DNA of 64,000 nucleotides from Candidatus Dojkabacteria bacterium (GCA_030583845.1 CP129478.1:587686-651685); one strand, 5' to 3'; counted from the stretch's first letter, positions 1,613-16,925 are shown. Numbers and translations: made by a program. Notes: generated from the sequence alone by a model not told the origin.

Positions 1613-1640
1613 AAGGTGAGTTTAGGCTCACCTTTTTTTT
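1613..1640 (+). terminator. Rho-independent terminator after fic.
   Basis: AAGGTGAG-tttagg-CTCACC hairpin followed by T8. Confidence 0.6.
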
Positions 1641-1761
1641 ACCCCGATGATTTGTGACCTGTTGATTGAGAGTTGAGGGTAACTTCACACTCTTAACCAC
1701 GCGGTTTACATAAATCTGTTATCATAATTCCGACAGAAATAAATTTTACATTTCATTAAAA

Positions 1762-3030
1762 ATGGCTTTAGTATCAGAATTCTTAGCTGCAATAAATCAG
1801 ATCGCATCAGAGCGAGGCATCGACCCTGAAGAGGTATTTCAGGCTCTTGAGGCTGCTGTCGCCGCTGCATACCGCAAGGAGTACGGTGGAACAGAAGAGA
1901 GCGTCAGAGTTGAATTAGACCGCGACGATGGGAAATTTAAGGTGATCGCCAACAAAGAGGTTGTGGCCAAAGTTGAAGATGAGTTCACACAGATCTCGCT
2001 CAAGCAGGCAAAAGCAATCGAGGATTCACTCGAGATTGGTGACTCGGTTGAGATCGAGCAGGAGGTAGAAGACTTCGGCCGAATCGCAGCCCAGACAGCC
2101 AAGCAGGTTATCATGCAGAAAGTACGTGACTCTGAGAAAGAGGCAGTGCTTGCAGAATATAGCGGCAAGGTTGGCGAAGTATTCGCTGCCATGATGCAGC
2201 GAATGCAGTATGGCGACGCAGTTTTTGAAATCGGCAAAGCGATGGCATTCATGCCACCAGAAGAGCAGATCTCTAGCGAATTTTACAGAATCGGTGAGAG
2301 ATACAAGGTATTGCTCAAAGATATTGCAGATACACCAAAAGGGAAGACATTGATTGTGTCAAGGAGTGCCCCTAACTTCCTGATTGAGCTTTTCAAGATG
2401 GAGGTTCCTGAAATTGAATCTGGCGTTGTTGAAGTTAAAGCATGTGCACGTGAAGCAGGCTCAAGGAGCAAGATGGCTGTCACATCACACCAGGAAGGTG
2501 TTGATCCAATCGGTTCATGTGTAGGTCAGCGAGGTGTAAGAATCGCTAACGTTATGGCCGAACTTGGTGATGAGAAGATCGATATCATCGAGTGGCGCGA
2601 AGAGCTTTCTGAATTTGTAGAGAAGGCACTTAGCCCAGCACAGGTGATCTCAGTCGAAATCAATGGCGACCTGGCAATTGTAAAGGTTGAAGAGGATCAG
2701 CTCTCACTGGCAATCGGTAAAGATGGTCAGAATGTAAGGCTTGCAGCCAAATTGACCGGTATGAAGATCGATATCCAGGGCCCCGACGGGAAACTAGAGC
2801 GAAGGCCAAAGGGTGAAGTGAAAACCGATGATTCTGCAGCAGCAGATGATGCAGTCGCTGATGATAGCGCAACTACAGATGGGTCAGCTTTGGACGCAGC
2901 ACTCGTTAAGAAATTAGAAAAGGCTGGAAAGACAGCAGATGATGTTAAGGGTTGGAGCGTTGAGCAGTTAATGGAGCTTGATGGAATTGGTAAGGCAACA
3001 GCAGAGAAGATCAACAAGGCTTTGAACTAA
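1762..3030 (+). CDS. nusA: Transcription termination/antitermination factor NusA.
   Basis: The N-terminal MALVSEFLAAINQIASERGI... matches the typical NusA N-terminus. S1 and KH regions are present, and the C-terminal LMELDGIGKATAEKI is HhH-like. Confidence 0.9.
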   Translation: MALVSEFLAAINQIASERGIDPEEVFQALEAAVAAAYRKEYGGTEESVRVELDRDDGKFKVIANKEVVAKVEDEFTQISLKQAKAIEDSLEIGDSVEIEQEVEDFGRIAAQTAKQVIMQKVRDSEKEAVLAEYSGKVGEVFAAMMQRMQYGDAVFEIGKAMAFMPPEEQISSEFYRIGERYKVLLKDIADTPKGKTLIVSRSAPNFLIELFKMEVPEIESGVVEVKACAREAGSRSKMAVTSHQEGVDPIGSCVGQRGVRIANVMAELGDEKIDIIEWREELSEFVEKALSPAQVISVEINGDLAIVKVEEDQLSLAIGKDGQNVRLAAKLTGMKIDIQGPDGKLERRPKGEVKTDDSAAADDAVADDSATTDGSALDAALVKKLEKAGKTADDVKGWSVEQLMELDGIGKATAEKINKALN

Positions 3031-3081
3031 GAAGGCGGATAAACTTAACGGAGCTACTACGTGAAAAAGGACCACGTTCCG

Positions 3082-3396
3082 ATGAGAACCTGTATCGTTA
3101 CGCGCGAGAAGGCTCCGAAAAGTGAGTTGATGCGGATTGTGGATAATGGTACGGTAATGCTCGACACAACCGGAAAGGTGCGCGGCCGAGGTGCAAGTAT
3201 GAAGAAAGACATCGATGTTTTTAACCTTGCGCTCGACAAAAACCATCTGGAGCGGGCTTTTAAGAGGAAGATCCACAAAGAAGAGAAAGAGAATCTGCGT
3301 GTAGAAGTTGAGAAATATCTGAGCAGGGAGAAACTACAGCCGGTTGAGGGGAAGCTGTCGGTAAGGGTGCAAGGGGAAAAAGTTAAGTTGAACTAA
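3082..3396 (+). CDS. ylxR: YlxR/DUF448 family RNA-binding protein encoded between nusA and infB.
   Basis: PMRTCIVTREKAPKSELMRIV motif at the conserved position. The ATG at 3082 follows an AAAAGGA SD-like sequence. An alternative GTG start lies at 3061. Confidence 0.7.
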   Translation: MRTCIVTREKAPKSELMRIVDNGTVMLDTTGKVRGRGASMKKDIDVFNLALDKNHLERAFKRKIHKEEKENLRVEVEKYLSREKLQPVEGKLSVRVQGEKVKLN

Positions 3397-3403
3397 GACA
3401 GCA

Positions 3404-5026
3404 GTGGCCAAAGCAAAGAAAACAGCAGAAGTTAAAGAAGTTCGAATCCCGATTGTTACAATTCTGGGCCATGTTGACCATGGTAAGACCTCTCTTCTCG
3501 ACAAAATCCGCGAAAGCAATGTACAGGCTGGTGAAGCCGGCGGCATCACACAGAAAGTGTCGGTATTTACCGTAGCAATCAATCAGAAAGATGAAAACGG
3601 CGCAAATAAGCAGATTACATTCATCGATACCCCAGGCCACGAGGCATTCGACTTGATGCGCTCTCGAGGTGGTCAGATCGCCGATGTAGTGTTGCTGATC
3701 GTAGCTGCAGATGATGGTCTCAAGCCACAAACTGAAGAGTCGATCGAAATTATCAAAGCATCAAAATCTCACCCGATCGTTGTAATCACCAAAGTCGACC
3801 TTCCTGATATCAATCTGGACAAGATCAAGCGCGAACTAAGCGTTAAAGGGATCATGGTAGAAGGAATGGGTGGAGATGTGCCTGTTGTAGAGGTATCTGC
3901 AAAAGATGGAACTGGAATAGACACACTTCTCGACACAATCAGCCTTGTAATTGATGTGCACAACTATATCGACCGAGCCGAGCTTCCAACAGGAGCTATT
4001 GGCAAGGCTTTCGTATTGGAATCAATCAAAGATGTGTCGAAGGGCAATGTCTCAACAGTAGTTATGCTTCAAGGAGATGCTTCAACAGGGAAATTCGTCG
4101 CATATGAGAAAGATGGCAACACTGTAGTAGAACGTATCAAGGGCTTCCTCTCTGAGGAGGGTGATAATGTTGATGCACTTAACACAGGCTCAGGAGGTAA
4201 GATCCTCGGCCTATCCAATCTGGTATCGCTCGGTTCAGAGATTTTCATAGTAGCTGATAATGACGCAAAAGTGGCAAAAGAGATTGTCGCCTCGAACAGG
4301 AAGATTGTTGCCGAAGAAGAAGCAGTAGTGCAGGCTGAAGGTGGCGAGGCCGATGATGAGGCAGCAGTGCTCCTCTCGCAGATGTTTGGTGCAGCCACAA
4401 CTACTGAGAATGAAGAAGAGGGTGGCAAGCTAAATGTGCTACTGAAATGCGGTTCAGAGGGTGCTCTCGAGGCAGTCCGATCCAACCTTCTATCAGTCGA
4501 TATTGAAGGATATAGCGTAAATATTGTGCTAGCAGGCGTTGGAGATATTACTCAAAGCGACATCGAGAAAGCCGCCGTGACCAAAGCAATTGTGCTTGGT
4601 TTTGAGGTGCAGGTTGATACCCGCGCAGAGGCAGAAGCTAAGAAAAGCAAGGTGCTCGTCCGCACATATGACATCGTGTATAAGCTGCTGGAAGAGATTA
4701 CCGATGCGTTGACATCAATGGCTACACCAAAAGAATCCGAAGAGGAGCTTGGTGAAGCCGAGATTCGCCAGATTTTCACATTGACTGATGGCTCACAGAT
4801 CCTTGGTGGTCGTGTAACTAAGGGACTAATCAAGCGTGGTGAGCGCTGCTATGTTGTCCGTGGCGACGATATTATTGTTGAGGGGAAGATTGTATCGTTG
4901 AGGCAGGGTAAGAATGCTGTGAATGAGGCACCTAAGGGTGCGGATTTTGGTGCTGGCATCGATCCGAAGTCGGATGATGTGAAAGAGGGGGATGTGATTT
5001 ATTGTTTCAAGGTGAATAAGAATTAG
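3404..5026 (+). CDS. infB: Translation initiation factor IF-2 (short form, G domain plus C-terminal domains only).
   Basis: GTG start. G1 motif [12 protein letters not shown] and DTPGHEAF are present. Only 540 aa, so the long N-terminal region is absent. Confidence 0.9.
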   Translation: MAKAKKTAEVKEVRIPIVTILGHVDHGKTSLLDKIRESNVQAGEAGGITQKVSVFTVAINQKDENGANKQITFIDTPGHEAFDLMRSRGGQIADVVLLIVAADDGLKPQTEESIEIIKASKSHPIVVITKVDLPDINLDKIKRELSVKGIMVEGMGGDVPVVEVSAKDGTGIDTLLDTISLVIDVHNYIDRAELPTGAIGKAFVLESIKDVSKGNVSTVVMLQGDASTGKFVAYEKDGNTVVERIKGFLSEEGDNVDALNTGSGGKILGLSNLVSLGSEIFIVADNDAKVAKEIVASNRKIVAEEEAVVQAEGGEADDEAAVLLSQMFGAATTTENEEEGGKLNVLLKCGSEGALEAVRSNLLSVDIEGYSVNIVLAGVGDITQSDIEKAAVTKAIVLGFEVQVDTRAEAEAKKSKVLVRTYDIVYKLLEEITDALTSMATPKESEEELGEAEIRQIFTLTDGSQILGGRVTKGLIKRGERCYVVRGDDIIVEGKIVSLRQGKNAVNEAPKGADFGAGIDPKSDDVKEGDVIYCFKVNKN

Positions 5027-5154
5027 AGAACAGTTAGTTACATTGGCAATTCATATGGCGATCATATATTTGCTGTCCAAGCTCCCGCTGAGGCTATATA
5101 ATCGCTTGTAGACTTTACCGCTGATGCGGGATCTAATCCATAATAAGGGGATAT

Positions 5155-6738
5155 ATGGCGAGCAACCACAAAACAGACACTACCAAAGAGCAAGAACGAG
5201 CAGAGTTGCATAGAGCGATCTGGCAGATTGCCAATGATTTGCGTGGTAGTGTCGATGGGTGGGATTTCAAGTCATATGTGCTAGGTATCCTTTTCTACCG
5301 GTTCATCAGCGAGAATCTAACAAACTATATCAACTCCGATGAACGGAGATCTAGTAAAGAAGATTTTGATTATGCAAAATTGTCAGATGAAGAGGCAGAG
5401 TTTGGCAGGGCCGATACAATTACGGAGAAGGGTTTCTATATACTGCCTAGCGAGCTCTTTGTAAATGTGTGCAGAAATGCCAGAAATGATTCTAATCTCA
5501 ACGAAACTCTATCGAGAGTATTCAACAATATCGAAAACTCCGCAAAGGGAGCTGTTAGTGAGGATGATCTAAAGGGTTTGTTTGATGATCTGGATGTTAA
5601 CTCCAACAAGCTGGGTAATACAGTTGAGAAACGTAATCAGAAGTTGGTTAAGCTCTTGGAAGCCGTAGGCAATCTCCAGCTTGGTAACTATGCTGATAAT
5701 ACTATCGATGCATTTGGTGACGCCTATGAGTATCTAATGATGATGTACGCCTCCAACGCAGGTAAATCTGGAGGTGAATTCTACACCCCTCAAGAGGTAA
5801 GCGAACTATTGGCTGAAATAACTACTGTGGGCAAGAAAGAGGTCAACAAAGTTTACGATCCAGCCTGCGGTTCCGGCTCGCTTCTGCTTAAATTTGCCAA
5901 GGTTTTGGGAAGAGAGAATGTGCGGCAGGGTTTTTTTGGTCAAGAGATCAATCTCACCACTTACAACTTATGTCGCATAAATATGTTCTTACACGACATT
6001 AACTACAACAATTTTGATGTCGCTCTTGGTGACACACTGAAAGATCCTAAGCATTGGGATGATGAACCATTCGATGCAATAGTCTCCAATCCGCCCTATT
6101 CTATTAAATGGGAAGGAGACGCTAACCCACTTCTTATCAATGACTCTCGTTTCTCACCTGCAGGTGTATTAGCACCGAAGAGCAAGGCAGACTTAGCATT
6201 TACAATGCATATGCTTTCCTGGCTCTCTACTAGTGGGACAGCAGCTATTGTTGAATTCCCAGGAGTCTTATATCGCGGGGGAGCAGAGCAAAAAATTAGA
6301 AAATATCTCATCGATAACAACTATGTAGACGCAGTTATCCAATTACCTCCAGATCTATTTTTTGGCACCACAATTGCTACCTGTGTCATAGTGCTAAAGA
6401 AGAGTAAGCAAGACAATAAGACTATCTTTATCGACGCCTCAAAGGAGTTTGTCAGGAATGGCAACAAGAATAAGCTGACAGAAGCTAATCGCAAGAAGAT
6501 CCTCGATGCTTTTAAAAACCGCACAGATGTTGATTATTTTTCTAAGCTGGTAGACAACAAAGATATTGCTGAGAATGGCTACAAAATTGCTGTATCTAGC
6601 TATGTTGTAGCCGAGGATACTCGTGAAGTGATAGATATCACCGAGCTAAATAGCAAAATCAGCCAGATAGTTGCTAGGCAGAGTGAGCTGCGAAAGGCAA
6701 TAGATGAGATTGTTTCTGATATTGAAGGGGGGGAATAG
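5155..6738 (+). CDS. hsdM: Type I restriction-modification system DNA methyltransferase subunit M.
   Basis: N6-adenine methyltransferase motif NPPY (SNPPYSIKW), an AdoMet-binding region DPACGSGSLL, and an HsdM-type N-terminus. Confidence 0.9.
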   Translation: MASNHKTDTTKEQERAELHRAIWQIANDLRGSVDGWDFKSYVLGILFYRFISENLTNYINSDERRSSKEDFDYAKLSDEEAEFGRADTITEKGFYILPSELFVNVCRNARNDSNLNETLSRVFNNIENSAKGAVSEDDLKGLFDDLDVNSNKLGNTVEKRNQKLVKLLEAVGNLQLGNYADNTIDAFGDAYEYLMMMYASNAGKSGGEFYTPQEVSELLAEITTVGKKEVNKVYDPACGSGSLLLKFAKVLGRENVRQGFFGQEINLTTYNLCRINMFLHDINYNNFDVALGDTLKDPKHWDDEPFDAIVSNPPYSIKWEGDANPLLINDSRFSPAGVLAPKSKADLAFTMHMLSWLSTSGTAAIVEFPGVLYRGGAEQKIRKYLIDNNYVDAVIQLPPDLFFGTTIATCVIVLKKSKQDNKTIFIDASKEFVRNGNKNKLTEANRKKILDAFKNRTDVDYFSKLVDNKDIAENGYKIAVSSYVVAEDTREVIDITELNSKISQIVARQSELRKAIDEIVSDIEGGE

Positions 6739-6859
6739 TATGGGAAAAATGCACGATCCATTTTCTGGGTTTCTGGGAACAACTAAACAACCCGGATTTT
6801 AAAGTACACGAATTCGTGTACTTTAAAGATAGTGATAGTTATGAGGAGTAAAAAGTGTT

Positions 6860-8083
6860 ATGTCAAAGGATAAAAGCAGAATTGAAAAACTTATCGAAGA
6901 GCTCTGTCCTGAGGGGGTAGAGTTTAAAGAATTAGCTGAAATCTTTTCGATGAAAAATGGGTATACCCCATCGAAATCCAAACCAGAATATTGGAAAGAT
7001 GGGGCAATACCTTGGTTTCGCATGGAAGATATTCGAGCGAATGGGCGCATTCTTAATGACTCTATACAGCACATCGCAGAAATTGCTGTGAAAGGGGGCA
7101 AACTTTTTCCAGCTCATTCAATCCTAGTCGCAACTTCGGCTACGATTGGTGAGCATGCACTGATCACTGTTAAACATCTTTCGAATCAGAGGTTCACTTC
7201 TCTTAGTCTTAAATCGGAGTATGTAGATCAACTAGACATGAAGTTTGCACATTACTATTGCTATGTACTTGATGAATGGTGCAGGAATAATGTTACTACA
7301 TCAAGTTTCGCCTCTGTTGATATGAACGGCTTTAGGAAATTCAAAATCCCCATCCCTCCTCTCGAAGTCCAGGAAGAAATTGTCAAAATCCTAGATAATT
7401 TTACAGAGCTGGAGGCAGAGCTGGAGGCAGAGCTGGAGGCAAGGAAGAAGCAGTATGAGTACTACCGTTCAAGGTTGATTGGATTTGATAAGTATTTGAG
7501 GTGGGTCACATTGAGTGAATTAGGGCAATTTAAATACGGGTTTACGGAGAAAGCAAAAGATTCTGGGAGTGCAAGATTCATACGCATTACAGATATCGGA
7601 GATAATGGACACATAAGAGATCAGGATATTAAGTATGTAGATATTACAGACCGTAACAAGGACTATCTTTTAACAGAAAATGATTTACTAATGGCGAGAA
7701 CTGGTGCGACCTTTGGTAAGACCCTTCTAGTAAAAGCTGAGCAACCCTCTATCTACGCATCATTCTTGATTAAGATCGATCTCGATAATTCAAAAATATT
7801 GAATCAGTTTTATTGGCACTTTACAAAAACAAGAGAATATTGGAATCAAGTTAACAATCTCGCTTCTGCAGGTGGACAACCACAATTTAACGCAAATGCA
7901 TTAAAGAAAATCAGAGTTCCAATTCCTGAGATCTCTGAGCAAAAAGACATAGTAGCCATCCTAGACAAATTCGACGCCCTCGTGAACGACATCACCATCG
8001 GACTCCCTGCCGAACTCAAAGCCCGACGACAACAGTATGAATACTATCGAGATAAACTACTAACATTCAAAGAATATGTCTGA
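6860..8083 (+). CDS. hsdS: Type I restriction-modification system specificity subunit S.
   Basis: Two target-recognition-domain halves, a central coiled-coil spacer with ELEAELEAELEA, and a conserved C-terminal LKARRQQYEYYRDKLL. Confidence 0.85.
   Translation: MSKDKSRIEKLIEELCPEGVEFKELAEIFSMKNGYTPSKSKPEYWKDGAIPWFRMEDIRANGRILNDSIQHIAEIAVKGGKLFPAHSILVATSATIGEHALITVKHLSNQRFTSLSLKSEYVDQLDMKFAHYYCYVLDEWCRNNVTTSSFASVDMNGFRKFKIPIPPLEVQEEIVKILDNFTELEAELEAELEARKKQYEYYRSRLIGFDKYLRWVTLSELGQFKYGFTEKAKDSGSARFIRITDIGDNGHIRDQDIKYVDITDRNKDYLLTENDLLMARTGATFGKTLLVKAEQPSIYASFLIKIDLDNSKILNQFYWHFTKTREYWNQVNNLASAGGQPQFNANALKKIRVPIPEISEQKDIVAILDKFDALVNDITIGLPAELKARRQQYEYYRDKLLTFKEYV
7406..7441 (+). repeat. 12-bp tandem repeat GAGCTGGAGGCA x3 inside the hsdS central spacer.
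   Basis: Three perfect copies encode (LEAE)n between the two target-recognition domains. Confidence 0.85.
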
Positions 8084-8693
8084 TCGTAACGAGATTATTT
8101 ACATATTAACAAACGAGGCGATGCCTGGATATATCAAAATTGGATTTACTCATGGCATTCTTGAGGACAGATTACGTCAGCTTGACACCACTAGCATGCC
8201 TCTGCCTTTTGAGATTTATTACGCTTGTGAAGTAGAGAATGCAAAGAAGGATGAACAATGGATGCACGAGATCTTCGGTGATAAGCGTGTACGAGACAGA
8301 CGAGAGTTCTTCAAGATGGATCCAGAACGTGCAGTTGTAGCTTTGCAAAGGATACAGGTGAGAGAAATTGGAATCTATGCAAGCATTGCGACCCCCGCCC
8401 AGCAAAAAGAAATCGCTCAAAAGAAAAGGAACCGTTCCCGCTTTGATTTCAAAAAATACGGTATAGCTGTTGGTACAGAGATCTATTTTTCCCGCGATGG
8501 TAATATAAAGGCGAAGGTGCTTGGGAAGAACAAGATCGAATTGAAAGGAATCGAAACAAGCCTTTCTAAATCAGCAGAACAATTACTAGGATTTGGACCT
8601 GTAGCAGGTACTTTATACTGGATGTACGAAGACGAAACCCTTGATGAGCGCCGCCGTCGTATGGATAGCGAAAATAACGAAAAATATGAATAA
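8076..8693 (+). CDS. T5orf172 / GIY-YIG-like domain protein embedded in the Type I RM locus.
   Basis: IYILTNEAMPGYIKIGFT...RLRQL....PLPFEIYYA...E..K.E...HEIF...R..RREFF fits the T5orf172 pattern. The position between hsdS and hsdR is common for accessory nuclease-like genes. Confidence 0.5.
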   Translation: MSDRNEIIYILTNEAMPGYIKIGFTHGILEDRLRQLDTTSMPLPFEIYYACEVENAKKDEQWMHEIFGDKRVRDRREFFKMDPERAVVALQRIQVREIGIYASIATPAQQKEIAQKKRNRSRFDFKKYGIAVGTEIYFSRDGNIKAKVLGKNKIELKGIETSLSKSAEQLLGFGPVAGTLYWMYEDETLDERRRRMDSENNEKYE

Positions 8694-8706
8694 CAAGAGA
8701 TACAAC

Positions 8707-11700
8707 ATGGTTACCCAAAGTGCAGAAAGCACGGTGGTGTCCGAATATACTCGTGAAGCCAACATGCTGAGAGATGCAGGATATCAAAGTGAGGCGGAGC
8801 TAGAACGAGCATTTATCCAGCAGCTACAATCACAAGCATATGAGTATATCTCAATTAGGACTGAGGCAGATCTGCTTGCCAACCTGCGGCACCAACTCGA
8901 AAAGCTGAACGAATATACTTTCACAGATGCTGAGTGGGATAGATTTTTCACAAGCGCTCTCGCCAACCCTAATCAGAGCATTGTAGAGAAAACAGTCACA
9001 ATCCAGGAAGATTACATTAAGAATCTTACTCGTGATGATGGCTCGACCAAGAACATCTACCTACTCAAAAAAGATACTATCCACGATAACAATCTCCAGG
9101 TCATCAATCAGTATGCAACTGATGATGGCCTCCGTTCTAACCGTTACGACGTCACGATTCTGGTCAATGGTCTCCCACTGGTTCATATCGAGCTTAAACG
9201 TCGCGGAGTTCCAATACAGGAGGCTTTTAATCAGATCAATCGCTATGATCGTGAAAGCTTCTGGGCCGCCTCTGGCCTTTTTGAATATGTACAGATATTT
9301 GTAATATCAAATGGCACCCATACCAAGTATTACAGCAACACAACCCGTGCTACTCATATCAAGGAAAATGGTGAAGGATCAGTTAAGCGAGGTAAACGGA
9401 CCAGTAATAGCTTTGAATTTACCAGCTGGTGGGCAGATGCAACAAATAGGCCGATTACTGATCTAGAGGATTTTGCGAAAACATTTTTTGCCAAACATAC
9501 GATTCTCAATATCCTCACCCGATACTGTATCTTTACCACCGATCGCCTTCTTCTCGTTATGCGCCCTTACCAGATTGTGGCTACTGAGAGAATCATAAAC
9601 CGTGTCGAAGTAAGTACTAACTATAAGAAGACCGGCGGTGTGGAGGCCGGCGGCTATATCTGGCATACAACCGGATCTGGTAAGACATTAACCAGTTTCA
9701 AAACTGCTCAATTGGTAAGCAAAATGGCTGATGTAGATAAGGTTGTTTTTGTAGTAGATCGTAAAGATCTGGATATCCAGACAATGCAGGAGTATGACAA
9801 GTTTGAAAAGGGCGCTGTGAATAGTAATACCAGTACGGCTATTCTCACCAGACAGCTTAGCGATCCGAACGCTCGAATAATCGTCACAACAATTCAGAAG
9901 CTTGATCGCTTTATTAGCCGAAACGAAGGGCACACCATTTTTAATGGGCATGTAGTGCTGATCTTTGATGAATGCCATCGCTCTCAATTTGGCGAGATGC
10001 ATGCTGCTATTACAAAAGCATTTAACAATTATCACATCTTCGGTTTTACAGGGACACCGATTTTTGCGATTAATGCATCTTCAGGCGGACGTCCAGATCT
10101 TAGGACCACAGAGCAGGCTTTTGGGGAGAAGCTTCACACATATACTATTGTTGACGCTATTGCTGACAAAAATGTCCTGCCATTCAAAGTTGACTATATA
10201 TCAACTATCAAGGAGGCAGAAGACATTGAAGATAAGAAAGTCAGCGATATTGATCGAGAAGCAGTACTTTCAGCTCCAGAGCGTATTGCAAATATTGTCA
10301 CTTATATTCGCGAGCACTTTGACCAGAAAACTAAAAGAAATAGCAGTTATAAGGTCAAAGATCGCAGATTGGCCGGCTTTAATTCGATCTTCGCAGTTTC
10401 TTCCATAGATGTGGCTAAGAAGTATTATGCTGAATTTAAAAAGCAGCTCGCTGACCTACCTAGCGACAAACAGCTAAAAATTGCAACCATCTACAGCTTC
10501 GGAGTGAATGATGAGGATGCTGATGGCATGATTGATGAGAACTCAGAGGATACAGCAGGACTCGATGCAAACTCTCGAGATTTCCTGGATAACGCAATTG
10601 TCGACTACAATCGAATGTTCGGCACCTCCTTTGATACCTCGTCTGACAAATTCCAGAACTACTACAAGGATGTGAGCAAACGAGTCAAAGATCGTGAAAT
10701 CGATCTATTGATCGTAGTCAATATGTTCCTTACCGGCTTTGATGCCACCACACTTAATACTCTTTGGGTAGATAAAAATCTGCGTTTACACGGATTATTA
10801 CAAGCCTACTCTCGCACGAACCGCATCTTAAATAGCGTTAAAACATTTGGGAATATAGTCTGTTTCCGCAACCTTGAAAAAGCCACCAATGAGTCGATAG
10901 CCCTGTTTGGTGACAAGGAAGCTAGTGGTATTGTTCTGTTGAAGGCCTATGGCGACTACTATCACGGATATAGAGATGATGAGAAAGAGGTTCGAGGCTA
11001 CGAGAGCTTAGTTAAGGAGCTCTTAGAACGATTCCCAGTCGGAGAGCGAATTTTGGGTGAGCAGAATCAAATGGATTTTGTAAAGCTGTACGGTGCAATT
11101 TTACGTGTACGCAATATCCTGACAACATTCGACGAGTTTTCAGGCAATGAGATTCTGTCCGAACGAGATATCCAGGATTATCATAGCGCCTACATCGATA
11201 TCTATAATGAGTTCCGTAAAGGTGTGGAAGTCGAAAAGGAGAATGTAAACGAAGACCTGCTGTTTGAGATGGAACTTATCAAGCAGGTGGATATTAACAT
11301 CGATTACATCCTAGGTCTGATAAAGATCTATCATGAGGGTCATACTGAAAACAAGGAGCTGCTTCTTGATATCAATAAAGCAATAGATTCAAGTGTTGAA
11401 CTACGCAACAAGAAAGACCTGATCAACCAGTTTATCTCATCGCTCGATATACACTCTGTGGTTGATGATGATTGGAAGGAATTTGTTGAAGGTAAGAAGG
11501 CTGAAGAACTCGAAACCATAATCAAGGTCGAGGGCTTGGATCGCGATGCCACTTATGCTTTTATCAAGAATGCATTTCGCGATGGGTCTGTGACAACAAC
11601 AGGTACCTCAATTACAAGGATTCTACCTCCGGTTTCTCGATTCTCACCAACTGGTGAGCGTACCAAGAAACGGGAGAGTGTAATTGAAAAACTCACAGAA

Positions 11701-11736
11701 TTCTTTGATAAGTTCTTCACGATTTCGAGTGAGTAA
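8707..11736 (+). CDS. hsdR: Type I restriction enzyme R subunit (helicase-nuclease).
   Basis: RPYQIVATERI, Walker A TGSGKTLTSF and DEAH-like FDECHRSQFG motifs. The start was moved to the ATG at 8707 to avoid a 53-nt overlap with the upstream gene. Confidence 0.9.
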   Translation: MVTQSAESTVVSEYTREANMLRDAGYQSEAELERAFIQQLQSQAYEYISIRTEADLLANLRHQLEKLNEYTFTDAEWDRFFTSALANPNQSIVEKTVTIQEDYIKNLTRDDGSTKNIYLLKKDTIHDNNLQVINQYATDDGLRSNRYDVTILVNGLPLVHIELKRRGVPIQEAFNQINRYDRESFWAASGLFEYVQIFVISNGTHTKYYSNTTRATHIKENGEGSVKRGKRTSNSFEFTSWWADATNRPITDLEDFAKTFFAKHTILNILTRYCIFTTDRLLLVMRPYQIVATERIINRVEVSTNYKKTGGVEAGGYIWHTTGSGKTLTSFKTAQLVSKMADVDKVVFVVDRKDLDIQTMQEYDKFEKGAVNSNTSTAILTRQLSDPNARIIVTTIQKLDRFISRNEGHTIFNGHVVLIFDECHRSQFGEMHAAITKAFNNYHIFGFTGTPIFAINASSGGRPDLRTTEQAFGEKLHTYTIVDAIADKNVLPFKVDYISTIKEAEDIEDKKVSDIDREAVLSAPERIANIVTYIREHFDQKTKRNSSYKVKDRRLAGFNSIFAVSSIDVAKKYYAEFKKQLADLPSDKQLKIATIYSFGVNDEDADGMIDENSEDTAGLDANSRDFLDNAIVDYNRMFGTSFDTSSDKFQNYYKDVSKRVKDREIDLLIVVNMFLTGFDATTLNTLWVDKNLRLHGLLQAYSRTNRILNSVKTFGNIVCFRNLEKATNESIALFGDKEASGIVLLKAYGDYYHGYRDDEKEVRGYESLVKELLERFPVGERILGEQNQMDFVKLYGAILRVRNILTTFDEFSGNEILSERDIQDYHSAYIDIYNEFRKGVEVEKENVNEDLLFEMELIKQVDINIDYILGLIKIYHEGHTENKELLLDINKAIDSSVELRNKKDLINQFISSLDIHSVVDDDWKEFVEGKKAEELETIIKVEGLDRDATYAFIKNAFRDGSVTTTGTSITRILPPVSRFSPTGERTKKRESVIEKLTEFFDKFFTISSE

Positions 11737-11903
11737 AGGTTCAACTGAATCTATAGATTTGGACGTAGTAGCTAGATCGATGAATTGCAACCCTCTCTCT
11801 TAGGCGACTGATGAGCTATCCTTCCCACCTCCCCTCATCCCTCATTTTAGTCTATAATAGACTATCCACTGTCCCATATACATTACCTATAAACCATCAA
11901 ACA

Positions 11904-13064
11904 ATGAGCGGTGAAGAATTCATTTCACAAATAAAGAAAGCCAAGAAAATTGCCCTTTGCGTGGACGAATTAACCGAAATGGACCATGTATATTTCGTCG
12001 TCGCGCTTGATAAACTTGCCAAACAGCTCGATACCAAGATTGACCTAATTCATCTTAATGAAATCAGACCTGAATTTAAGAAGAAGCTCGAGGAAAATTC
12101 AGTTTCATTCGCCTCCGACCCGAAGCCTCTAAGCTATGTAATTAGCATCGACTACTCCAAAACAGGAATTGAGAAAATTACATACGACCCAGACGAGAAA
12201 GAAGGAAAGCTGAAGTTTTTCATCATCCCAACCGACGGACAGTTTGATTTTGATAATGTGGAGTACTCGACCGAGGGTAGCAACTACGACCTCACAATGA
12301 CCATGAAGATTACAAGCTTCAAGGACATGGGTCGTGTTTACGAGAAGAATGGCTATATTTTCAAAGATAATAAAGTAATCTCATTTGCACAGGGGATTGA
12401 TTCGCTCGGCGATATGTTTATCGGCGTTGATGAGTCGGGCTACTCGGTCAAATTGTATGAATTAGTCAAAGATACAGCAGATCAGGAAGTGCTCAGCACA
12501 ATTGTCACAGGCGTAATTGAAGAGAGTGCGATAGCCGAAGGCGGAGCCAACTTCAATGTATGGATGCTACTTGGTGATGCTGCCGGTCGAAATATCAATG
12601 TGAATAACCTGATGCAGAAAGCCTACTATCAGAAAGATCCTTCACTTCTCGATGTGTATCGAAAGCAGATGTTTAATGTCGAGAATGATGATGATAACCG
12701 TGTGGTGTGGTCGATATTGGATAGCAACGACCTGGGAGAGCTTACGGTGTCTCAGACTCAGGAACTGCTCAAGGGGCGCCTCATCTTCAATGTCTCGAGC
12801 CAATACGATATTGCTTTCGCAGTGTATGAATTTACCAAGGATCGACTCAGTGTAGTGGTTGAATCAAATGCAACCGAGAAGTACTCAGCCGAGAAGATCG
12901 CCAAGGTGTTTGGTGGCGATGGCACAGCGGCGCATGCGCAATTTGTGGTTGAGGATATGCCTCCAAGTCAATTCAAGGATAGGTTCGCGAAAGTGGTAGA
13001 AGACCTGTACCAGATACGGTTTGGTGCGAAGCGGATTGAGGCAGTGCCTCAGGTACAGGGATAA
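11904..13064 (+). CDS. Hypothetical protein, possibly a degenerate DHH/DHHA1 (NrnA-like) protein.
   Basis: Long ORF with coding-like composition. The C-terminal FGGDGTAAHA resembles a DHHA1 GGGH motif, but no DHH motif is present. The ATG at 11904 is preferred over 11811. Confidence 0.45.
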   Translation: MSGEEFISQIKKAKKIALCVDELTEMDHVYFVVALDKLAKQLDTKIDLIHLNEIRPEFKKKLEENSVSFASDPKPLSYVISIDYSKTGIEKITYDPDEKEGKLKFFIIPTDGQFDFDNVEYSTEGSNYDLTMTMKITSFKDMGRVYEKNGYIFKDNKVISFAQGIDSLGDMFIGVDESGYSVKLYELVKDTADQEVLSTIVTGVIEESAIAEGGANFNVWMLLGDAAGRNINVNNLMQKAYYQKDPSLLDVYRKQMFNVENDDDNRVVWSILDSNDLGELTVSQTQELLKGRLIFNVSSQYDIAFAVYEFTKDRLSVVVESNATEKYSAEKIAKVFGGDGTAAHAQFVVEDMPPSQFKDRFAKVVEDLYQIRFGAKRIEAVPQVQG

Positions 13065-13134
13065 TCGCGGGTGTCGGCGAGCAGCTATCTGTTGGCAGCG
13101 AGAGCCGATGGACCCCCGGAGTAGCCTATAATTA

Positions 13135-13163
13135 TTGACAAAAGCTGATTTCTAGGGTATATT
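13135..13163 (+). promoter_or_regulatory. Candidate sigma70-like promoter for rpsO (TTGACA, 17-nt spacer, TATATT).
   Basis: Consensus -35 box at 13135-13140 and TATATT at 13158-13163, about 85 nt upstream of the rpsO ATG. Confidence 0.35.
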
Positions 13164-13250
13164 TTCTACGTTAATCTGTCCAATGATGAAATCTCATCTA
13201 AAGCACTGCTATTGTGCTATGTGCGAAATTTATGTTAGATTATAAGGAAT

Positions 13251-13514
13251 ATGTCACTTACCAGAGACGAGAAAAACCAGATTATTGCTAAGTATGCCCT
13301 CCACGAGGGTGACTCTGGTTCACCTGAAGTTCAGATTGCGCTCCTGAGCGAGAAGATCAACAAATTGAGCGAGCACCTAAAAGATCACAAGAAAGATAAC
13401 CATTCACGACGAGGATTGCTTCAGATGGTAGGTAAGCGCAGAAGGCTTATTGAGTATCTTAAGACATCCGATCCTGAGAGATATACAAAAATTGCGAAGG
13501 AACTAAAGCTCTAA
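13251..13514 (+). CDS. rpsO: 30S ribosomal protein S15.
   Basis: [36 protein letters not shown]...HSRRGLL is a canonical S15 sequence. Confidence 0.95.
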
Positions 13515-13560
13515 CAAGGGCTTTTTTACACTTCCCTTTATAACTTCCACCAAAGATGCA

Positions 13561-13721
13561 CCCGCCAACCTATAATGCGTGGCATTTCACGGCTCATCAA
13601 GTAAAATTAATGAGCAAGTATAATGCGGGATTTATTAAACGATGAGCCTTTGTGAGCTACACTCTGGTTGCTCGGTTAATGAAAAGTGCGTGATCTACGC
13701 GTTATAGGTTAGCGGGGGCGG
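13561..13721 (+). promoter_or_regulatory. Long imperfect inverted repeat (family B palindromic element) forming a structured rpsO-pnp intergenic leader.
   Basis: The left arm CCCGCCAACCTATAATGCGT (13561-13580) pairs with the right arm ACGCGTTATAGGTTAGCGGGGGCGG (13697-13721). An inner hairpin GGCTCATC (13591-13598) pairs with GATGAGCC (13641-13648). TATAATGCG occurs twice, at 13571-13579 and 13619-13627. Confidence 0.5.
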
Positions 13722-13752
13722 TAAAGATTAATTTATTCAAAATATTATTTAA

Positions 13753-16032
13753 ATGTTTGACGAGAAGAAATACGAATTTCAGATTGAGGGTGTAAACTGC
13801 TCATTCTCGACAGGGCTGCTAGCACGAAAGTCGCAGTCCGCAGTATTTGCCAAGATGGGCGATACTTCAATTTTAGCAACTGTAAACGTTGGCGAGGCCA
13901 AGACAGATGCAGACTTTTTCCCAATGAGCGTTGAGTACATGGAGAAAATGTACGCAGCAGGCAAGATTTCTGGCTCACGATTTGTGAAGCGAGAGAGATT
14001 CCCTACAGATGACGCGATCCTGAAGGCAAGAATGATCGACCGCACGGTTCGATCACGATTTCCTAAGGGTTATCGAAACGAAGTAAGCATCATTGTAAAG
14101 GTGCTTTCTTACGATCCTATGTACGATCCACTTATCTTGGGCATCAACGCCGTATCTGCAGCACTCTTGATCTCACCAGCTCCTATTGATGAGCCAGTTT
14201 CGGGAGTACGCGTTGGATATGTTGATGGTCAATTTACAGCATTTAACAGCAATACCGACCGAGATGACCTCGGAACCTCAACATTAAACCTCGTAGTAGG
14301 TGGTGATGGTGAGACATTCACCAACATCGACTCAAATGCATATGAGCTACCTGAAGATACAATGATCGATGCAATGAAGCACGGTTTGGAGCTGATGAAG
14401 CCATGGATTGAGGCACAGAACAAGTTCGTAGAGATGGTTGGTGAAGTTAAGAAGGCTGAATATGAGTCATTTGACTTGCCAGAAGCACTCGTAGAGAAAG
14501 CTATGGCAGTATATGGCAAAGAGATCGATGCTCTACTTGCCGATCGTGCATATGATAAGGGCGGTCCAAAAGAGCTTATGGAGAGGATGTTTGAAGAGTT
14601 CTCTGGCGAGTACTCGAAGCGACAGGTCACAGAGACCTACTTCGAGCTTGCTAAGAAGCTTACTCGAAAGGTTGTCTTGGAAACAGGCAAGCGAGTAGAT
14701 GGTCGAGCATTGGACGAGATCCGACCACTCGATACACAGGTAGGACTCTTGCCACGAACTCATGGTACAGGATTGTTCTCAAGAGGTATGACACAGGTGC
14801 TAACAGTTGCAACTCTTGGTAGCTCACGAAGTCAGATGATCGTTGACGACATGACTGGTGAGGACAGCCGCAGATATATGCACTACTATGTTGAAGCACC
14901 TTACGTTTTCGGTGAAGCCGGGCGTGTGAACTATATGCCTGGTCGACGTGAGGTTGGTCATGGTGCATTGGCTGAGAAGGCTCTGTTCCCAGTGCTTCCA
15001 TCGATGGAAGAGTTCCCATACACGATTATCCTCATGAGCGAGATCATGTCTGAAGAGGGCTCGAGCTCAATGGGCTCAACATGTGGATCGACACTTGCCC
15101 TGATGGATGCAGGCGTACCTATCAAGAAGCCTGTCGCAGGTGTCGCAGTCGGCGTTATGTTCGACGAGGAAACTCCAGAAAAATTCGTCACACTGGTAGA
15201 TATCCAGGGTGTAGAAGACTTCTATGGCTACATGGACTTCAAAGTAACAGGTACAGTTGATGGTGTAACTGCGGTGCAGATGGATACCAAGGCTAAGGGT
15301 CTCCCAATCGAGGTATTTGAGAAAGCAATTGCCGACTCAAAAGCAGCACGATTGAAGATTCTTGATCAGATTAACAGCGCAATCTCAGCTCCTAGAGAGC
15401 AGCTTTCTGAATTCGCACCTAAAGTTGAAGTGGTAAAGATCCCTGTAGCCAAGATCGGTGAATTGATCGGCCCAGGTGGCAAGAATATCAAGAAGATCGG
15501 TGAAGATACCGGCGCAGAGATCGACATTGAAGAGGATGGTACAGTAAACATCTTCGCTATGGATGCAGAATCACTGGCCAAGGCTAAAGCAGCTGTTGAG
15601 CCATTTGCATTCGTACCTGAAGTAGGGAAAACCTACATGGGTCTCGTAGAGAAATTGGCAGACTTCGGAGCATTTGTAGAGCTAGTACCAGGAGTAACCG
15701 GGTTGGTACATGTATCCGAGATGTCAGACAAGTATGTACGCGACGCAGGCGACTTCGTAAAAGAGGGCGAGCAGGTCGAAGTGCTTGTACTCGGCGTTGA
15801 AGATAATGGCAAGATCAAGCTTACAATGAAGGGCCTCGAGAGCAACAAAGATCGTGGTCCAGCAGATGATGGCAGTGGCGATAGTGGCAGTGACCGAGAT
15901 GGTCGCGGCGGAGATCGCGGAGGCCGAGGCGGATATGGTGGGTCACGTGGTGGCTCAGATAGACGTGGAGGTCGAGGCCGTGGCGGATATGGCGACCGAG
16001 ATGGTGGCCGTAGGGATTACAATAGGTATTAG
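13753..16032 (+). CDS. pnp: Polyribonucleotide nucleotidyltransferase (PNPase) with an unusual C-terminal RGG/GYG-rich tail.
   Basis: Two RNase PH-like domains, a KH domain (IGPGGKNIKKI) and an S1 domain are present. The last ~70 aa read DRGPADDGSGDSGSDRDGRGGDRGGRGGYGGSRGGSDRRGGRGRGGYGDRDGGRRDYNRY. Confidence 0.92.
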   Translation: MFDEKKYEFQIEGVNCSFSTGLLARKSQSAVFAKMGDTSILATVNVGEAKTDADFFPMSVEYMEKMYAAGKISGSRFVKRERFPTDDAILKARMIDRTVRSRFPKGYRNEVSIIVKVLSYDPMYDPLILGINAVSAALLISPAPIDEPVSGVRVGYVDGQFTAFNSNTDRDDLGTSTLNLVVGGDGETFTNIDSNAYELPEDTMIDAMKHGLELMKPWIEAQNKFVEMVGEVKKAEYESFDLPEALVEKAMAVYGKEIDALLADRAYDKGGPKELMERMFEEFSGEYSKRQVTETYFELAKKLTRKVVLETGKRVDGRALDEIRPLDTQVGLLPRTHGTGLFSRGMTQVLTVATLGSSRSQMIVDDMTGEDSRRYMHYYVEAPYVFGEAGRVNYMPGRREVGHGALAEKALFPVLPSMEEFPYTIILMSEIMSEEGSSSMGSTCGSTLALMDAGVPIKKPVAGVAVGVMFDEETPEKFVTLVDIQGVEDFYGYMDFKVTGTVDGVTAVQMDTKAKGLPIEVFEKAIADSKAARLKILDQINSAISAPREQLSEFAPKVEVVKIPVAKIGELIGPGGKNIKKIGEDTGAEIDIEEDGTVNIFAMDAESLAKAKAAVEPFAFVPEVGKTYMGLVEKLADFGAFVELVPGVTGLVHVSEMSDKYVRDAGDFVKEGEQVEVLVLGVEDNGKIKLTMKGLESNKDRGPADDGSGDSGSDRDGRGGDRGGRGGYGGSRGGSDRRGGRGRGGYGDRDGGRRDYNRY

Positions 16033-16037
16033 GCTGA

Positions 16038-16502: not shown

Positions 16503-16590
16503 AGTAGAGGATTCTTTAGCGCTTTATTAATTTGCTACAGTCTATAAGGCTTGAGAAGTAGATATTTAACTGTTAGAATTGCACAACCTA

Positions 16591-16919: not shown

Positions 16920-16925
16920 AAATAG

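What the first reader, a model, noticed from the sequence alone, without database searches (positions are those of the whole stretch)
5155..13064. Type I RM island (hsdM-hsdS-T5orf172-hsdR) inserted into the nusA-infB...rpsO-pnp operon; rbfA and truB absent
The widely conserved order is nusA-infB-rbfA-truB-rpsO-pnp. Here infB is followed by a complete Type I RM system plus a hypothetical gene before rpsO, and neither rbfA nor truB is present. This suggests a defence island integrated into a core operon with loss or relocation of rbfA and truB. The T5orf172 gene between hsdS and hsdR is a defence-island-associated nuclease-like module.
Basis: partly seen in the sequence, partly recalled or inferred. 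Interest (0 to 1): 0.55.

Follow-up and report, generated by a model that had tools for sequence, protein, structure and literature searches.

The report
Swappable defence cassette inside core operon
A complete, horizontally acquired Type I restriction-modification system with an extra small nuclease-like gene sits in a swappable slot just after infB in a tiny-genome (CPR, Dojkabacteria) bacterium. The missing rbfA and truB were never at this site in this lineage, so the insertion did not remove them.

Summary
hsdM, hsdS, a T5orf172 gene and hsdR lie between infB and rpsO, and no rbfA or truB is detectable in the 64-kb window.

The causal interpretation does not hold. The genome is a Candidatus Dojkabacteria (CPR) MAG. 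Eight other Dojkabacteria-type loci have nusA-(ylxR)-infB-[386-aa gene]-rpsO-pnp with no rbfA or truB, whether or not there is cargo. Class-wide loss of rbfA is already published.

The "hypothetical gene" (true CDS 11904-13064) is a conserved operon member: a divergent NrnA-like DHH/DHHA1 protein whose catalytic motifs are lost.

The island is 5027-11819. It fills the infB|DHH-like spacer, which is 66-420 nt and empty in distant relatives. In close relatives the same spacer carries other cargo: a Cas12a CRISPR-Cas module, or a 153-aa gene of unknown function.

A near-identical strain differs only across window 2100-13155, and is 100% identical for 5.6 kb downstream. There is no integrase and there are no flanking repeats. 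The cassette was therefore most likely exchanged by homologous recombination through the flanking core genes.

The restriction system is EcoR124-like (Type IC), looks intact, and is 82-90% identical to systems in other CPR classes, which indicates recent transfer. The T5orf172 gene matches PADLOC candidate PDC-S57 and is a clean 617-bp insertion at the hsdS|hsdR junction.

This is a new member of a known kind, of moderate interest.

The parts
2100..13155 (.). Recombinant tract. This is the only segment that differs from the near-identical strain L008/L009. It covers part of nusA, ylxR, infB, the cargo and the DHH-like gene.
   Evidence: There are 18 mismatches in 481-2099. From 2100 to 5026 divergence is dense (62-94% identity). 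The cargo is different. 11820-13155 is 72-92% identical. The last mismatch is at 13155, and 13156-18802 has 0 mismatches.
3404..5026 (+). infB (short IF-2, 540 aa). It is the left anchor of the hotspot; homology to relatives ends at its stop codon.
5027..11819 (+). Variable cargo slot, here a 6.8-kb Type IC RM plus PDC-S57 island. It is replaced by 0.8 kb in L008/L009 and by a Cas12a module in L013, and is empty (66-420 nt) in L011, L012, L014, L016 and L017.
5043..5070 (+). Promoter-like site (TTGGCA-16-TATATT) at the left edge of the island, upstream of hsdM. This is a consensus match only.
   Evidence: Promoter-like sites in the region are not enriched over shuffles.
5155..6738 (+). hsdM, the Type I m6A DNA methyltransferase subunit. 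It carries the NPPY and DPACGSGS motifs.
   Evidence: It is 85% aa identical to the Shapirobacteria homologue.
6798..6827 (.). A 30-bp perfect palindrome, TTTAAAGTACACGAATTCGTGTACTTTAAA, in the hsdM-hsdS spacer. Its function is unknown; an operator or an RNA hairpin is possible.
   Evidence: self reverse-complement match; I5.
6860..8083 (+). hsdS, the specificity subunit, with two target-recognition domains. Only the central and C-terminal conserved regions match relatives.
7404..7441 (+). A 12-nt tandem repeat, three copies, encoding ELEA-ELEA-ELEA in the central conserved region of hsdS. Copy number varies among homologues (3 or 4).
   Evidence: (D1).
8076..8693 (+). T5orf172/MUG113 (GIY-YIG-like) gene, equal to PADLOC candidate PDC-S57. 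It is a clean cassette insertion at the hsdS|hsdR junction.
8707..11736 (+). hsdR, the EcoR124-type restriction/translocase subunit. NCBI calls its start at 8686. It carries D...ELK, QxxxY, GSGKT and DECH motifs.
11820..11903 (+). Conserved spacer upstream of the DHH-like gene, containing a TATAAT box. It is the common right-hand boundary of all three cargo variants.
11904..13064 (+). A 386-aa divergent NrnA-like DHH/DHHA1 protein with degenerate catalytic motifs. It is a conserved operon member and the right anchor of the hotspot.
13251..13514 (+). rpsO (ribosomal protein S15).
13753..16032 (+). pnp (polynucleotide phosphorylase).

Best explanation
The window comes from a Candidatus Dojkabacteria (CPR/Patescibacteria) genome. 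In this lineage the ancestral order is nusA-(ylxR)-infB-[degenerate NrnA-like DHH/DHHA1 gene]-rpsO-pnp. rbfA and truB are not part of this cluster in any relative examined.

The short spacer between the infB stop codon and the promoter-bearing leader of the DHH-like gene acts as a defence-cargo hotspot without an integrase. In this strain it holds a 6.8-kb EcoR124-type (Type IC) restriction-modification operon, hsdM-hsdS-[T5orf172/PDC-S57]-hsdR. The operon appears intact and has its own promoter-like site.

The RM genes were acquired horizontally from the pool shared among CPR bacteria. The cassette reached or left this site by homologous recombination through the flanking core genes. Crossovers lie in nusA (about 1769-2100) and in the DHH-like|rpsO spacer (13155/13156). 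This is inferred to follow DNA uptake.

Inferred function:
- M2S methylates a bipartite target, set by the two TRDs and by the three ELEA repeats that fix the spacer length.
- R2M2S translocates and cuts unmodified DNA.
- The embedded T5orf172 protein is most likely an accessory nuclease effector, either a second defence layer or a guardian of the RM system. It may alternatively be a selfish free-standing homing-type nuclease gene.

What is shown and what is inferred:
- Shown: gene identities, intact motifs, site polymorphism, empty sites, the recombinant tract and the HGT signal.
- Inferred: enzymatic activity, the direction of the swap, the uptake route and the role of T5orf172.
For: Identity of the organism:
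- The 386-aa protein and HsdR are 100% identical to NCBI MAG proteins labelled Candidatus Dojkabacteria bacterium, on a 1,036,382-bp contig.

Ancestral gene order:
- L011, L012, L014/L015, L016 and L017/L018 have DHH-like proteins 28-46% identical to the window's.
- All have nusA-(ylxR)-infB-DHHlike-rpsO-pnp, spacers of 66-420 nt, and no rbfA or truB.
- Class-wide rbfA loss is published (PMC12641178).

Hotspot:
- L008/L009 are the same strain background and carry a 153-aa minus-strand gene of unknown function in place of the RM island.
- L013 (DHH-like protein 81% identical) carries cas12a-cas2-cas1-cas4 plus a 140-aa ORF at the same site.
- All three cargos end at the same conserved leader of about 85 nt.

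Exchange by homologous recombination:
- Compared with L008, the window shows near-identity (99-100% per 200-nt window) outside 2100-13155 and 62-94% inside it.
- There are 0 mismatches in 13156-18802.
- The island has no integrase, tRNA or flanking direct repeats.

Foreign origin:
- HsdR is 82-90% identical, and HsdM 85%, to proteins of Shapirobacteria, Woesebacteria, Daviesbacteria and Paceibacterota.
- The core DHH-like protein is only 38-48% identical within Dojkabacteria.
- GC is 41.8% in the island against 45.3% elsewhere in the window.

Type IC and intact:
- HsdR matches EcoR124I HsdR (2w00) at E=6e-256.
- Catalytic motifs are present.
- The HsdS TRDs differ from relatives while the conserved regions are retained.

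T5orf172:
- It matches PDC-S57 at 3e-63 over its full length.
- It is a clean 617-bp insertion relative to the hsdS|hsdR overlap in L025.
- The same cassette occurs in L023, and at hsdM|hsdS in L020.
- Homologues lie next to other RM systems.
Against: - The left junction (infB|hsdM) is seen only in the window itself. The independent contig L007 starts at 6798 and confirms only the right junction.
- The direction of the exchange cannot be determined from two alleles. RM could have been gained here or lost in L008.
- Only three occupied variants of the site were found, so "hotspot" rests on a small sample.
- Compositional deviation is modest.
- No activity, methylation or expression data exist.
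- The role of T5orf172 is unproven.
- Absence of truB from the whole genome was not tested.
Confidence: 0.8

Rival explanations
1. One reading: integration of the defence island into the core operon displaced or caused the loss of rbfA and truB.
For: rbfA and truB are indeed absent between infB and rpsO and anywhere else in the window.
Against: Eight related loci, with no cargo or with different cargo, also lack rbfA and truB here. They carry the DHH-like gene instead. Loss of rbfA is a class-level trait of Dojkabacteria (PMC12641178). Empty-site spacers are only 66-420 nt.
Confidence: 0.03
2. The RM operon is the older state at this site in this species, and the L008/L009 allele arose by replacement or deletion. 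On this reading the window shows retention, not insertion.
For: The direction of the window/L008 swap cannot be polarised. Both alleles appear to co-occur in one sample series: contig L010 from DRR779145 starts exactly at the breakpoint 13156.
Against: More distant relatives have empty sites. HsdR and HsdM are far more similar to other CPR classes than the core genes are. The island has the lowest GC in the window. At the scale of the lineage, the RM is therefore an acquisition.
Confidence: 0.1
3. The cargo is a site-specific mobile element (integrative island, transposon or homing cassette) that targets the infB 3' end. Its recombinase is encoded elsewhere or has been lost.
For: Three unrelated cargos share precise boundaries at the infB stop codon and at the conserved leader. 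The GIY-YIG-like T5orf172 gene could in principle act as a homing nuclease. Related RM operons in other CPR sit beside conjugation-like genes.
Against: There is no integrase, transposase, tRNA, or direct or inverted terminal repeats. Divergence extends 3 kb and 1.3 kb into the flanking core genes. Homologous recombination predicts this; site-specific insertion does not. The Cas12a cargo and the 153-aa cargo lack T5orf172.
Confidence: 0.06
4. Assembly or binning artefact: the island was mis-joined into a Dojkabacteria contig.
For: The left junction is supported only by the window. HsdR-like proteins are very similar across many CPR, which can confuse assemblers. The Logan contig breaks at the palindrome at 6798.
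Against: The independent assembly L007 (SRR24881069) is 100% identical from 6798 to 19410. It therefore spans hsdS-T5orf172-hsdR into the DHH-like gene, rpsO and pnp. The source contig is 1.04 Mb.
Confidence: 0.02

Closest known systems
EcoR124I / EcoR124II / EcoprrI (Type IC restriction-modification family)
   Same: - HsdR is full-length similar to EcoR124I HsdR (E=6e-256) and has the EcoR124_C domain.
- Gene order is hsdM-hsdS-...-hsdR.
- HsdS has two TRDs and a central conserved region that carries a 4-aa/12-nt tandem repeat whose copy number varies between homologues. From my own knowledge (Price et al. 1989, listed as a reference in PMC12707154), this parallels the TAEL repeat that distinguishes EcoR124 from EcoR124/3.
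- An extra gene is embedded in the operon, as prrC is in EcoprrI (PMC12707154).
   Different: - It is chromosomal, in a CPR bacterium, at a core-operon spacer rather than on a plasmid or in an enteric island.
- The embedded gene is a T5orf172/GIY-YIG-like protein, not the PrrC anticodon nuclease.
- The recognition sequence is unknown.
- Subunit complementation, the classical family criterion, has not been tested.
Enterobacterial Immigration Control Region (yjiA-yjiN; E. coli hotspot 36) and similar defence hotspots anchored by core genes
   Same: There are conserved anchor genes, an identifiable empty site, alternative defence systems (Type I RM and others) that replace one another, and no resident integrase (PMC12707154). 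All of these are seen here.
   Different: - The anchors here are translation and RNA-metabolism genes of a single conserved cluster (infB and an NrnA-like gene).
- The host is a roughly 1-Mb CPR genome.
- Only three cargo types have been sampled.
- A recombinant tract with mapped breakpoints is directly visible between two otherwise identical strains.
PADLOC phage-defence candidate PDC-S57 (T5orf172/MUG113, GIY-YIG superfamily)
   Same: It gives a full-length HMM match (3e-63). It has a conserved core of about 200 aa with invariant Y9, K21, R32 and E77. It recurs next to RM genes.
   Different: PDC-S57 is only a candidate family. No paper in the searched library mentions it, and no solved structure is detectable by sequence. 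Here it is embedded precisely at the hsdS|hsdR junction of a Type IC operon.
NrnA / TM1595 / Rv2837c (CnpB) DHH-DHHA1 nanoRNases (for the 386-aa neighbour)
   Same: It has the two-domain DHH/DHHA1 fold (Foldseek E about 1e-16 on a model with pLDDT 91). It shows profile homology (E=1e-38 to TM1595). From my own knowledge, M. tuberculosis Rv2837c also lies in the nusA-infB-rbfA neighbourhood.
   Different: The DHH motif is FAQ, GGGH is GGDG, and the motif I aspartates are lost. An extra beta-rich insert lies at about residues 73-135. The protein itself has no Pfam hit. It is probably not a phosphodiesterase.

Membership tests
Type I restriction-modification system, family IC (EcoR124-like) | HsdM with N6-adenine methyltransferase motifs (AdoMet-binding motif I; NPPY/F motif IV) | tested here: met
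   TIGR00497 at 2e-230 over the full length. DPACGSGS at residue 235 and NPPY at residue 312.
Type I restriction-modification system, family IC (EcoR124-like) | HsdS with two target-recognition domains separated by conserved regions | tested here: met
   Two Methylase_S stretches. PADLOC Specificity_I at 1.7e-125. The conserved centre and C-terminus match relatives while the TRDs differ.
Type I restriction-modification system, family IC (EcoR124-like) | HsdR with a PD-(D/E)xK nuclease, an SF2 translocase and a C-terminal EcoR124-type domain; close similarity to EcoR124I HsdR | tested here: met
   HSDR_N, SWI2_SNF2/ResIII, T1R_D3-like and EcoR124_C domains. Match to 2w00 at E=6e-256. D...ELK, QxxxY, GSGKT and DECH motifs.
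Type I restriction-modification system, family IC (EcoR124-like) | Subunit complementation with family members; ATP-dependent restriction and methylation of a bipartite site | not testable with these tools
   Requires biochemistry, or methylome data such as SMRT or Nanopore motif calling.
PADLOC PDC-S57 / T5orf172 (GIY-YIG superfamily) module | Match to the family HMMs over the full length | tested here: met
   PDLC05041 at 3e-63, residues 1-200 of 205. PF10544 at 2.7e-15 and PF13455 at 4.7e-15.
PADLOC PDC-S57 / T5orf172 (GIY-YIG superfamily) module | Nuclease catalytic residues of the GIY-YIG type | tested here: inconclusive
   Y9, K21, G23, R32, E77 and others are invariant in 14 homologues. 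They were not mapped to a structure, and there is no PDB hit by sequence.
PADLOC PDC-S57 / T5orf172 (GIY-YIG superfamily) module | Demonstrated anti-phage activity | not testable with these tools
   This is a candidate family only. No paper in the searched library mentions it.
Core-gene-anchored (integrase-less) defence hotspot | The same site between conserved anchor genes carries alternative cargos, and empty sites exist | tested here: met
   RM plus PDC-S57 (window and L007); the 153-aa gene (L008/L009); the Cas12a module (L013); empty in L011, L012, L014, L016 and L017.
Core-gene-anchored (integrase-less) defence hotspot | Exchange by homologous recombination in the flanks (a divergent tract extending into the anchors) | tested here: met
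   A divergent tract at 2100-13155 lies within otherwise near-identical genomes (99-100% per 200-nt window).
Integrase-mobilised genomic island / transposon | Integrase or transposase, att or terminal repeats, often a tRNA target | tested here: not met
   No such gene in 5027-11819. No flanking repeats. No tRNA in the window.
Canonical nusA-infB-rbfA-truB-rpsO-pnp cluster | rbfA and truB between infB and rpsO | tested here: not met
   Absent here and in 8 related loci. The class-wide lack of rbfA is published.
NrnA-type DHH/DHHA1 phosphoesterase (386-aa neighbour) | DHH/DHHA1 two-domain fold and profile homology | tested here: met
   (31 of 43 family members hit PF01368).
NrnA-type DHH/DHHA1 phosphoesterase (386-aa neighbour) | Catalytic motifs (DxD, D, DHH, D; GGGH) | tested here: not met
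   DHH is replaced by FAQ and GGGH by GGDG, and motif I is degenerate in the window protein and its Dojkabacteria relatives.

The most novel reading that the evidence does not exclude
Two non-exclusive readings remain open.

(a) The T5orf172/PDC-S57 protein wedged at the hsdS|hsdR junction may be a PrrC-like guardian of the Type IC enzyme. On this reading it is a latent nuclease, held in check by the RM complex and released when a phage inhibits restriction.

(b) The catalytically degenerate NrnA-like protein is fixed between infB and rpsO in a lineage that lacks RbfA and Era. It may have been recruited as a non-enzymatic RNA- or ribosome-maturation factor.

Either would be a new functional assignment. 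Neither is tested here.
Probability: 0.2. Interest if true: 0.6.

Novelty: new member of a known kind. Interest (0 to 1): 0.38.

Why it matters
It corrects a tempting inference. Here, "defence island destroyed a core operon" turns out to be lineage-wide gene loss that predates the island.

It also documents, with mapped breakpoints, that even roughly 1-Mb CPR genomes keep a swappable defence slot inside a translation-gene cluster. That slot is refilled by homologous recombination with RM or CRISPR-Cas cargo drawn from a pool shared across CPR classes.

This bears on how episymbiotic, reduced-genome bacteria maintain immune diversity without dedicated mobile-element machinery. It also flags two testable proteins: the PDC-S57 embedded in a Type IC RM, and a pseudo-NrnA in the infB-rpsO cluster.

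Tried and rejected
- The genome-contig scan with IF-2 returned only distant or irrelevant loci (at most 37% identity), so it gave no species-level synteny. It did supply a Burkholderiales rbfA and truB, used as probes.
- The metagenome-contig scan with the DHH-like alignment gave only two loci.
- Rfam and tRNA scans of the window found nothing.
- I looked for att-like direct repeats or terminal inverted repeats around 5027 and 11819. Only short chance matches appeared.
- I looked for a CRISPR array in the Cas12a-bearing locus L013. None was found in 21 kb.
- Pfam and PADLOC gave nothing significant for the 153-aa (L008) and 140-aa (L013) cargo ORFs; the only match was a far sub-threshold DUF7006 hit at E=0.093. 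Neither has a tblastn match (E<=1) in the window, and the two show no similarity to each other.
- Literature searches for PDC-S57 and for truB or pseudouridine synthases in CPR found nothing usable.
- I considered whether the 386-aa ORF could be a fused or divergent rbfA-truB. This was rejected: it has a confident DHH/DHHA1 fold.
- The last context look-up, for a distant DHH-family member (L031), landed on a 2.5-kb contig beside a PilB-like ATPase. The operon association therefore holds for the Dojkabacteria-type clade, not for the whole CPR DHH-like family.

Full report
**1. What is in the window**

Pfam and NCBIfam scans give the following genes, all on the + strand:
- A Fic gene, 511-1542.
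- nusA, 1762-3030.
- ylxR/rnpM, 3061-3396.
- A short infB, 3404-5026 (540 aa, with no N-terminal extension).
- hsdM, 5155-6738.
- hsdS, 6860-8083.
- A T5orf172/MUG113 gene, 8076-8693.
- hsdR, 8707-11736.
- An ORF without a Pfam hit.
- rpsO, 13251-13514.
- pnp, 13753-16032.

No tRNA and no Rfam family is present.

No rbfA or truB is detectable. Pfam scans of essentially all ORFs of at least 100 aa up to about 50 kb found none. phmmer with RbfA and TruB taken from a Burkholderiales locus, run against every six-frame ORF of the window, gave nothing better than E=0.49.

**2. Organism**

The Pfam-less protein, the T5orf172 protein and HsdR are each 100% identical to NCBI proteins of a "Candidatus Dojkabacteria bacterium" MAG. 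That MAG is a 1,036,382-bp contig with locus tag QY318_02690. This is a CPR/Patescibacteria genome.

**3.

An exact-sequence look-up of S15 returned four contigs:
- L007 and L010 are 100% identical to the window.
- L008 and L009 are identical to each other. They have infB, then a 153-aa minus-strand ORF, then a 386-aa ORF, rpsO and pnp, with no RM genes.

blastn aligns window 481-5020 with L008 1-4585, and window 11820-18802 with L008 5405-12369. The variable segment is therefore window 5027-11819 (6.8 kb), against 0.8 kb in L008.

The homology and the gene calls also show that the last ORF starts at the ATG at 11904 (386 aa), not at 11811.

Homologues of the 386-aa protein, their contigs and two metagenome loci come from progressively more distant relatives, with 28-46% protein identity. 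All of them show nusA-(ylxR)-infB-[386-aa homologue]-rpsO-pnp. The infB-to-homologue spacer is only 66-420 nt, and there is no rbfA or truB.

phmmer with the same probes found nothing in about 136 kb of these loci. This control is weak, because its sensitivity to very divergent sequences was not calibrated.

[quoted passage not shown] An earlier study found RbfA in only 969 of 2177 CPR genomes (PMC6744442).

The absence of rbfA is therefore an old, known lineage trait that does not depend on the island. For truB, I can say only that it is not in this cluster in any relative and not in this window.

**4. The site is a cargo hotspot**

L013 is a relative whose 386-aa protein is 81% identical to the window's. 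It carries cas12a, cas2, cas1, cas4 and a 140-aa ORF in exactly the same infB|386-aa interval.

An alignment of the region upstream of the 386-aa gene shows that the window, L008/L009 and L013 regain homology at the same point. This is about 85 nt before the ATG, in a leader that contains a TATAAT box.

On the left, homology ends at the infB stop codon in all of them.

The slot therefore has three unrelated cargos and several empty sites, with fixed boundaries.

**5. How the cargo moves**

The island has no integrase or transposase, no flanking direct or inverted repeats beyond chance, and no tRNA.

The window and L008 are essentially the same genome outside one tract:
- 481-2099 has 18 mismatches.
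- From 2100, inside nusA, to the end of infB, identity falls to 62-94%.
- The cargo differs.
- 11820-13155 (the DHH-like gene and its 3' spacer) is 72-92% identical.
- After the last mismatch at 13155, the next 5.6 kb are 100% identical.

This is the footprint of an allelic replacement of about 11 kb by homologous recombination, with crossovers in nusA and in the spacer before rpsO.

Contig L010, from a sister sample of the one that yielded L008, begins exactly at 13156. This is expected if the assembly graph branches there because both alleles are present.

The direction of the swap, and the route by which the DNA entered the cell, are inferred and not shown.

**6. Origin and nature of the RM system**

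HsdR is 82-90% identical to more than 100 protein clusters. These include proteins labelled Shapirobacteria, Woesebacteria, Daviesbacteria and Parcubacteria/Paceibacterota, and one labelled Methanofastidiosum. HsdM is 85% identical to the Shapirobacteria protein.

Core proteins of the same cluster are only 38-48% identical even within Dojkabacteria. This contrast, together with the lowest GC in the window (41.8% against 45.3%), argues for recent horizontal spread within CPR.

In Shapirobacteria-type contigs the operon is hsdM-hsdS-hsdR. It lies next to an OLD-TOPRIM/UvrD pair and to TraC- and VirB4-like genes, which is a mobile-element context.

HsdR matches EcoR124I HsdR (2w00) at E=6e-256 and has the EcoR124_C domain, so the system is Type IC-like. 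Catalytic motifs are intact in HsdM (DPACGSGS, NPPY) and in HsdR (D...ELK, QxxxY, GSGKT, DECH).

HsdS shares only its central and C-terminal conserved regions with relatives (32% identity overall). This is the usual TRD swapping.

The central region of HsdS carries a 12-nt repeat, three copies, encoding ELEAELEAELEA. Two otherwise near-identical homologues have 3 and 4 copies. From my own knowledge, this resembles the repeat-number change that alters spacer length between EcoR124 and EcoR124/3.

**7. The T5orf172 gene**

- It matches PADLOC candidate PDC-S57 over its full length (3e-63).
- It belongs to a large, tightly conserved family: 1120 hits, the listed ones 53-83% identical, with many invariant residues.
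- Relative to the T5orf172-less operon of L025, where hsdS and hsdR overlap, it is a clean 617-bp insertion at 8085-8700.
- The same hsdS-T5orf172-hsdR arrangement occurs in L023 in a different neighbourhood.
- In L020 a homologue sits between hsdM and hsdS.
- Other homologues flank an EcoRI-like methylase with a GmrSD/HNH gene, an Eco57I-type system, a BsuBI/PstI RM, or a Type I MTase/S pair on plasmids.

It is thus a small module that recurrently lodges in or beside RM systems.

Two mechanisms fit. It could be an accessory defence or guardian nuclease, by analogy with prrC embedded in the Type IC EcoprrI locus (PMC12707154). Or it could be a selfish free-standing homing-type GIY-YIG gene. 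I favour the first, weakly, because the family also occurs in defence islands away from Type I operons. No experiment or structure is available.

**8. The 386-aa neighbour**

A profile search of 1.84 billion representatives found 2199 relatives. Of 43 sampled, 31 hit Pfam DHH.

The 43-sequence profile matches TM1595, NrnA and Rv2837c in the PDB, with E down to 1e-38. An AlphaFold model built on that alignment (pLDDT 91.3, pTM 0.83) matches the same DHH/DHHA1 phosphodiesterases by Foldseek (E about 1e-16, probability 1.00).

The catalytic motifs are gone, however. DHH is FAQ, GGGH is GGDG, and motif I is degenerate.

It is a conserved, probably non-catalytic NrnA-like protein that belongs to the operon and not to the island.

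**9. Verdict**

The "defence island inserted into a core cluster" reading is supported and sharpened: it is an integrase-less hotspot exchanged by homologous recombination. The "loss or relocation of rbfA/truB due to the island" reading is rejected.

The components (Type IC RM, PDC-S57, core-anchored hotspot, rbfA-less CPR) are all known kinds. The specific instance, the mapped recombinant tract in a CPR genome and the alternative Cas12a cargo are new details. Interest is moderate.

Noticed in passing
window 511-1542: The Fic-domain gene just upstream of nusA matches the PADLOC SoFic defence model (6.5e-46). It is present in L008. In more distant relatives (L011, L012, L017) the dnaJ-nusA interval instead holds a hypothetical gene of about 1300-1400 aa. 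This may be a second variable or defence slot flanking the same operon.
   Followed up: partly
window 7404-7441 (hsdS); L024 and L025 hsdS: A 12-nt tandem repeat encodes ELEA three times in the central conserved region of HsdS. Near-identical Shapirobacteria-type HsdS proteins differ by exactly one repeat (3 or 4 copies; 385 or 389 aa). This suggests that specificity switches through spacer length, as in EcoR124 versus EcoR124/3.
   Followed up: partly
window 6798-6827: A perfect 30-bp palindrome with a central GAATTC lies in the 121-nt hsdM-hsdS spacer. The independent Logan contig L007 breaks exactly here. It could be an operator, an RNA hairpin or a recombination site. It was not compared across homologous operons.
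   Followed up: no
window 11904-13064: This conserved NrnA-like DHH/DHHA1 protein has lost its DHH and GGGH motifs and gained an extra beta-rich insert (about residues 73-135). It is fixed between infB and rpsO in Dojkabacteria-type genomes that lack rbfA. Its function is unknown; it may be a pseudoenzyme.
   Followed up: yes
L013 3264-9669: The Cas12a (type V-A) gene and the cas4-cas1-cas2 module occupy the same hotspot in a related genome. No CRISPR array was found anywhere in the 21-kb locus. The array may be elsewhere, or it may have collapsed in the assembly.
   Followed up: partly
L008 4888-5349 (minus strand): The alternative cargo in the RM-less strain is a single acidic 153-aa ORF. 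It has no significant Pfam match (only a sub-threshold DUF7006 hit, E=0.093) and no PADLOC match, and it has no homologue in the window. Its function is unknown.
   Followed up: partly
window 16926-17526: An overlapping pair of small ORFs (113 aa and 89 aa) lies downstream of pnp. The second has a weak HicA-toxin hit (E=9.8e-4), so this may be a HicAB-like toxin-antitoxin pair.
   Followed up: no
protein P0388: An HsdR 84% identical to the window's is labelled Methanofastidiosum sp., an archaeal MAG. This is either cross-domain transfer of this RM family or a binning error.
   Followed up: no
window 3404-5026: IF-2 is only 540 aa and starts directly at the G domain. The same holds in all related loci (528-556 aa), so it is a lineage feature of these reduced genomes.
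   Followed up: no
L024-L028 (about 11075-14633): In Shapirobacteria-type contigs the homologous Type IC operon is followed immediately by an OLD-TOPRIM ATPase plus a UvrD helicase (a Gabija-like pair) and preceded by TraC- and VirB4-like genes. This points to carriage on a conjugative or integrative element in CPR.
   Followed up: no
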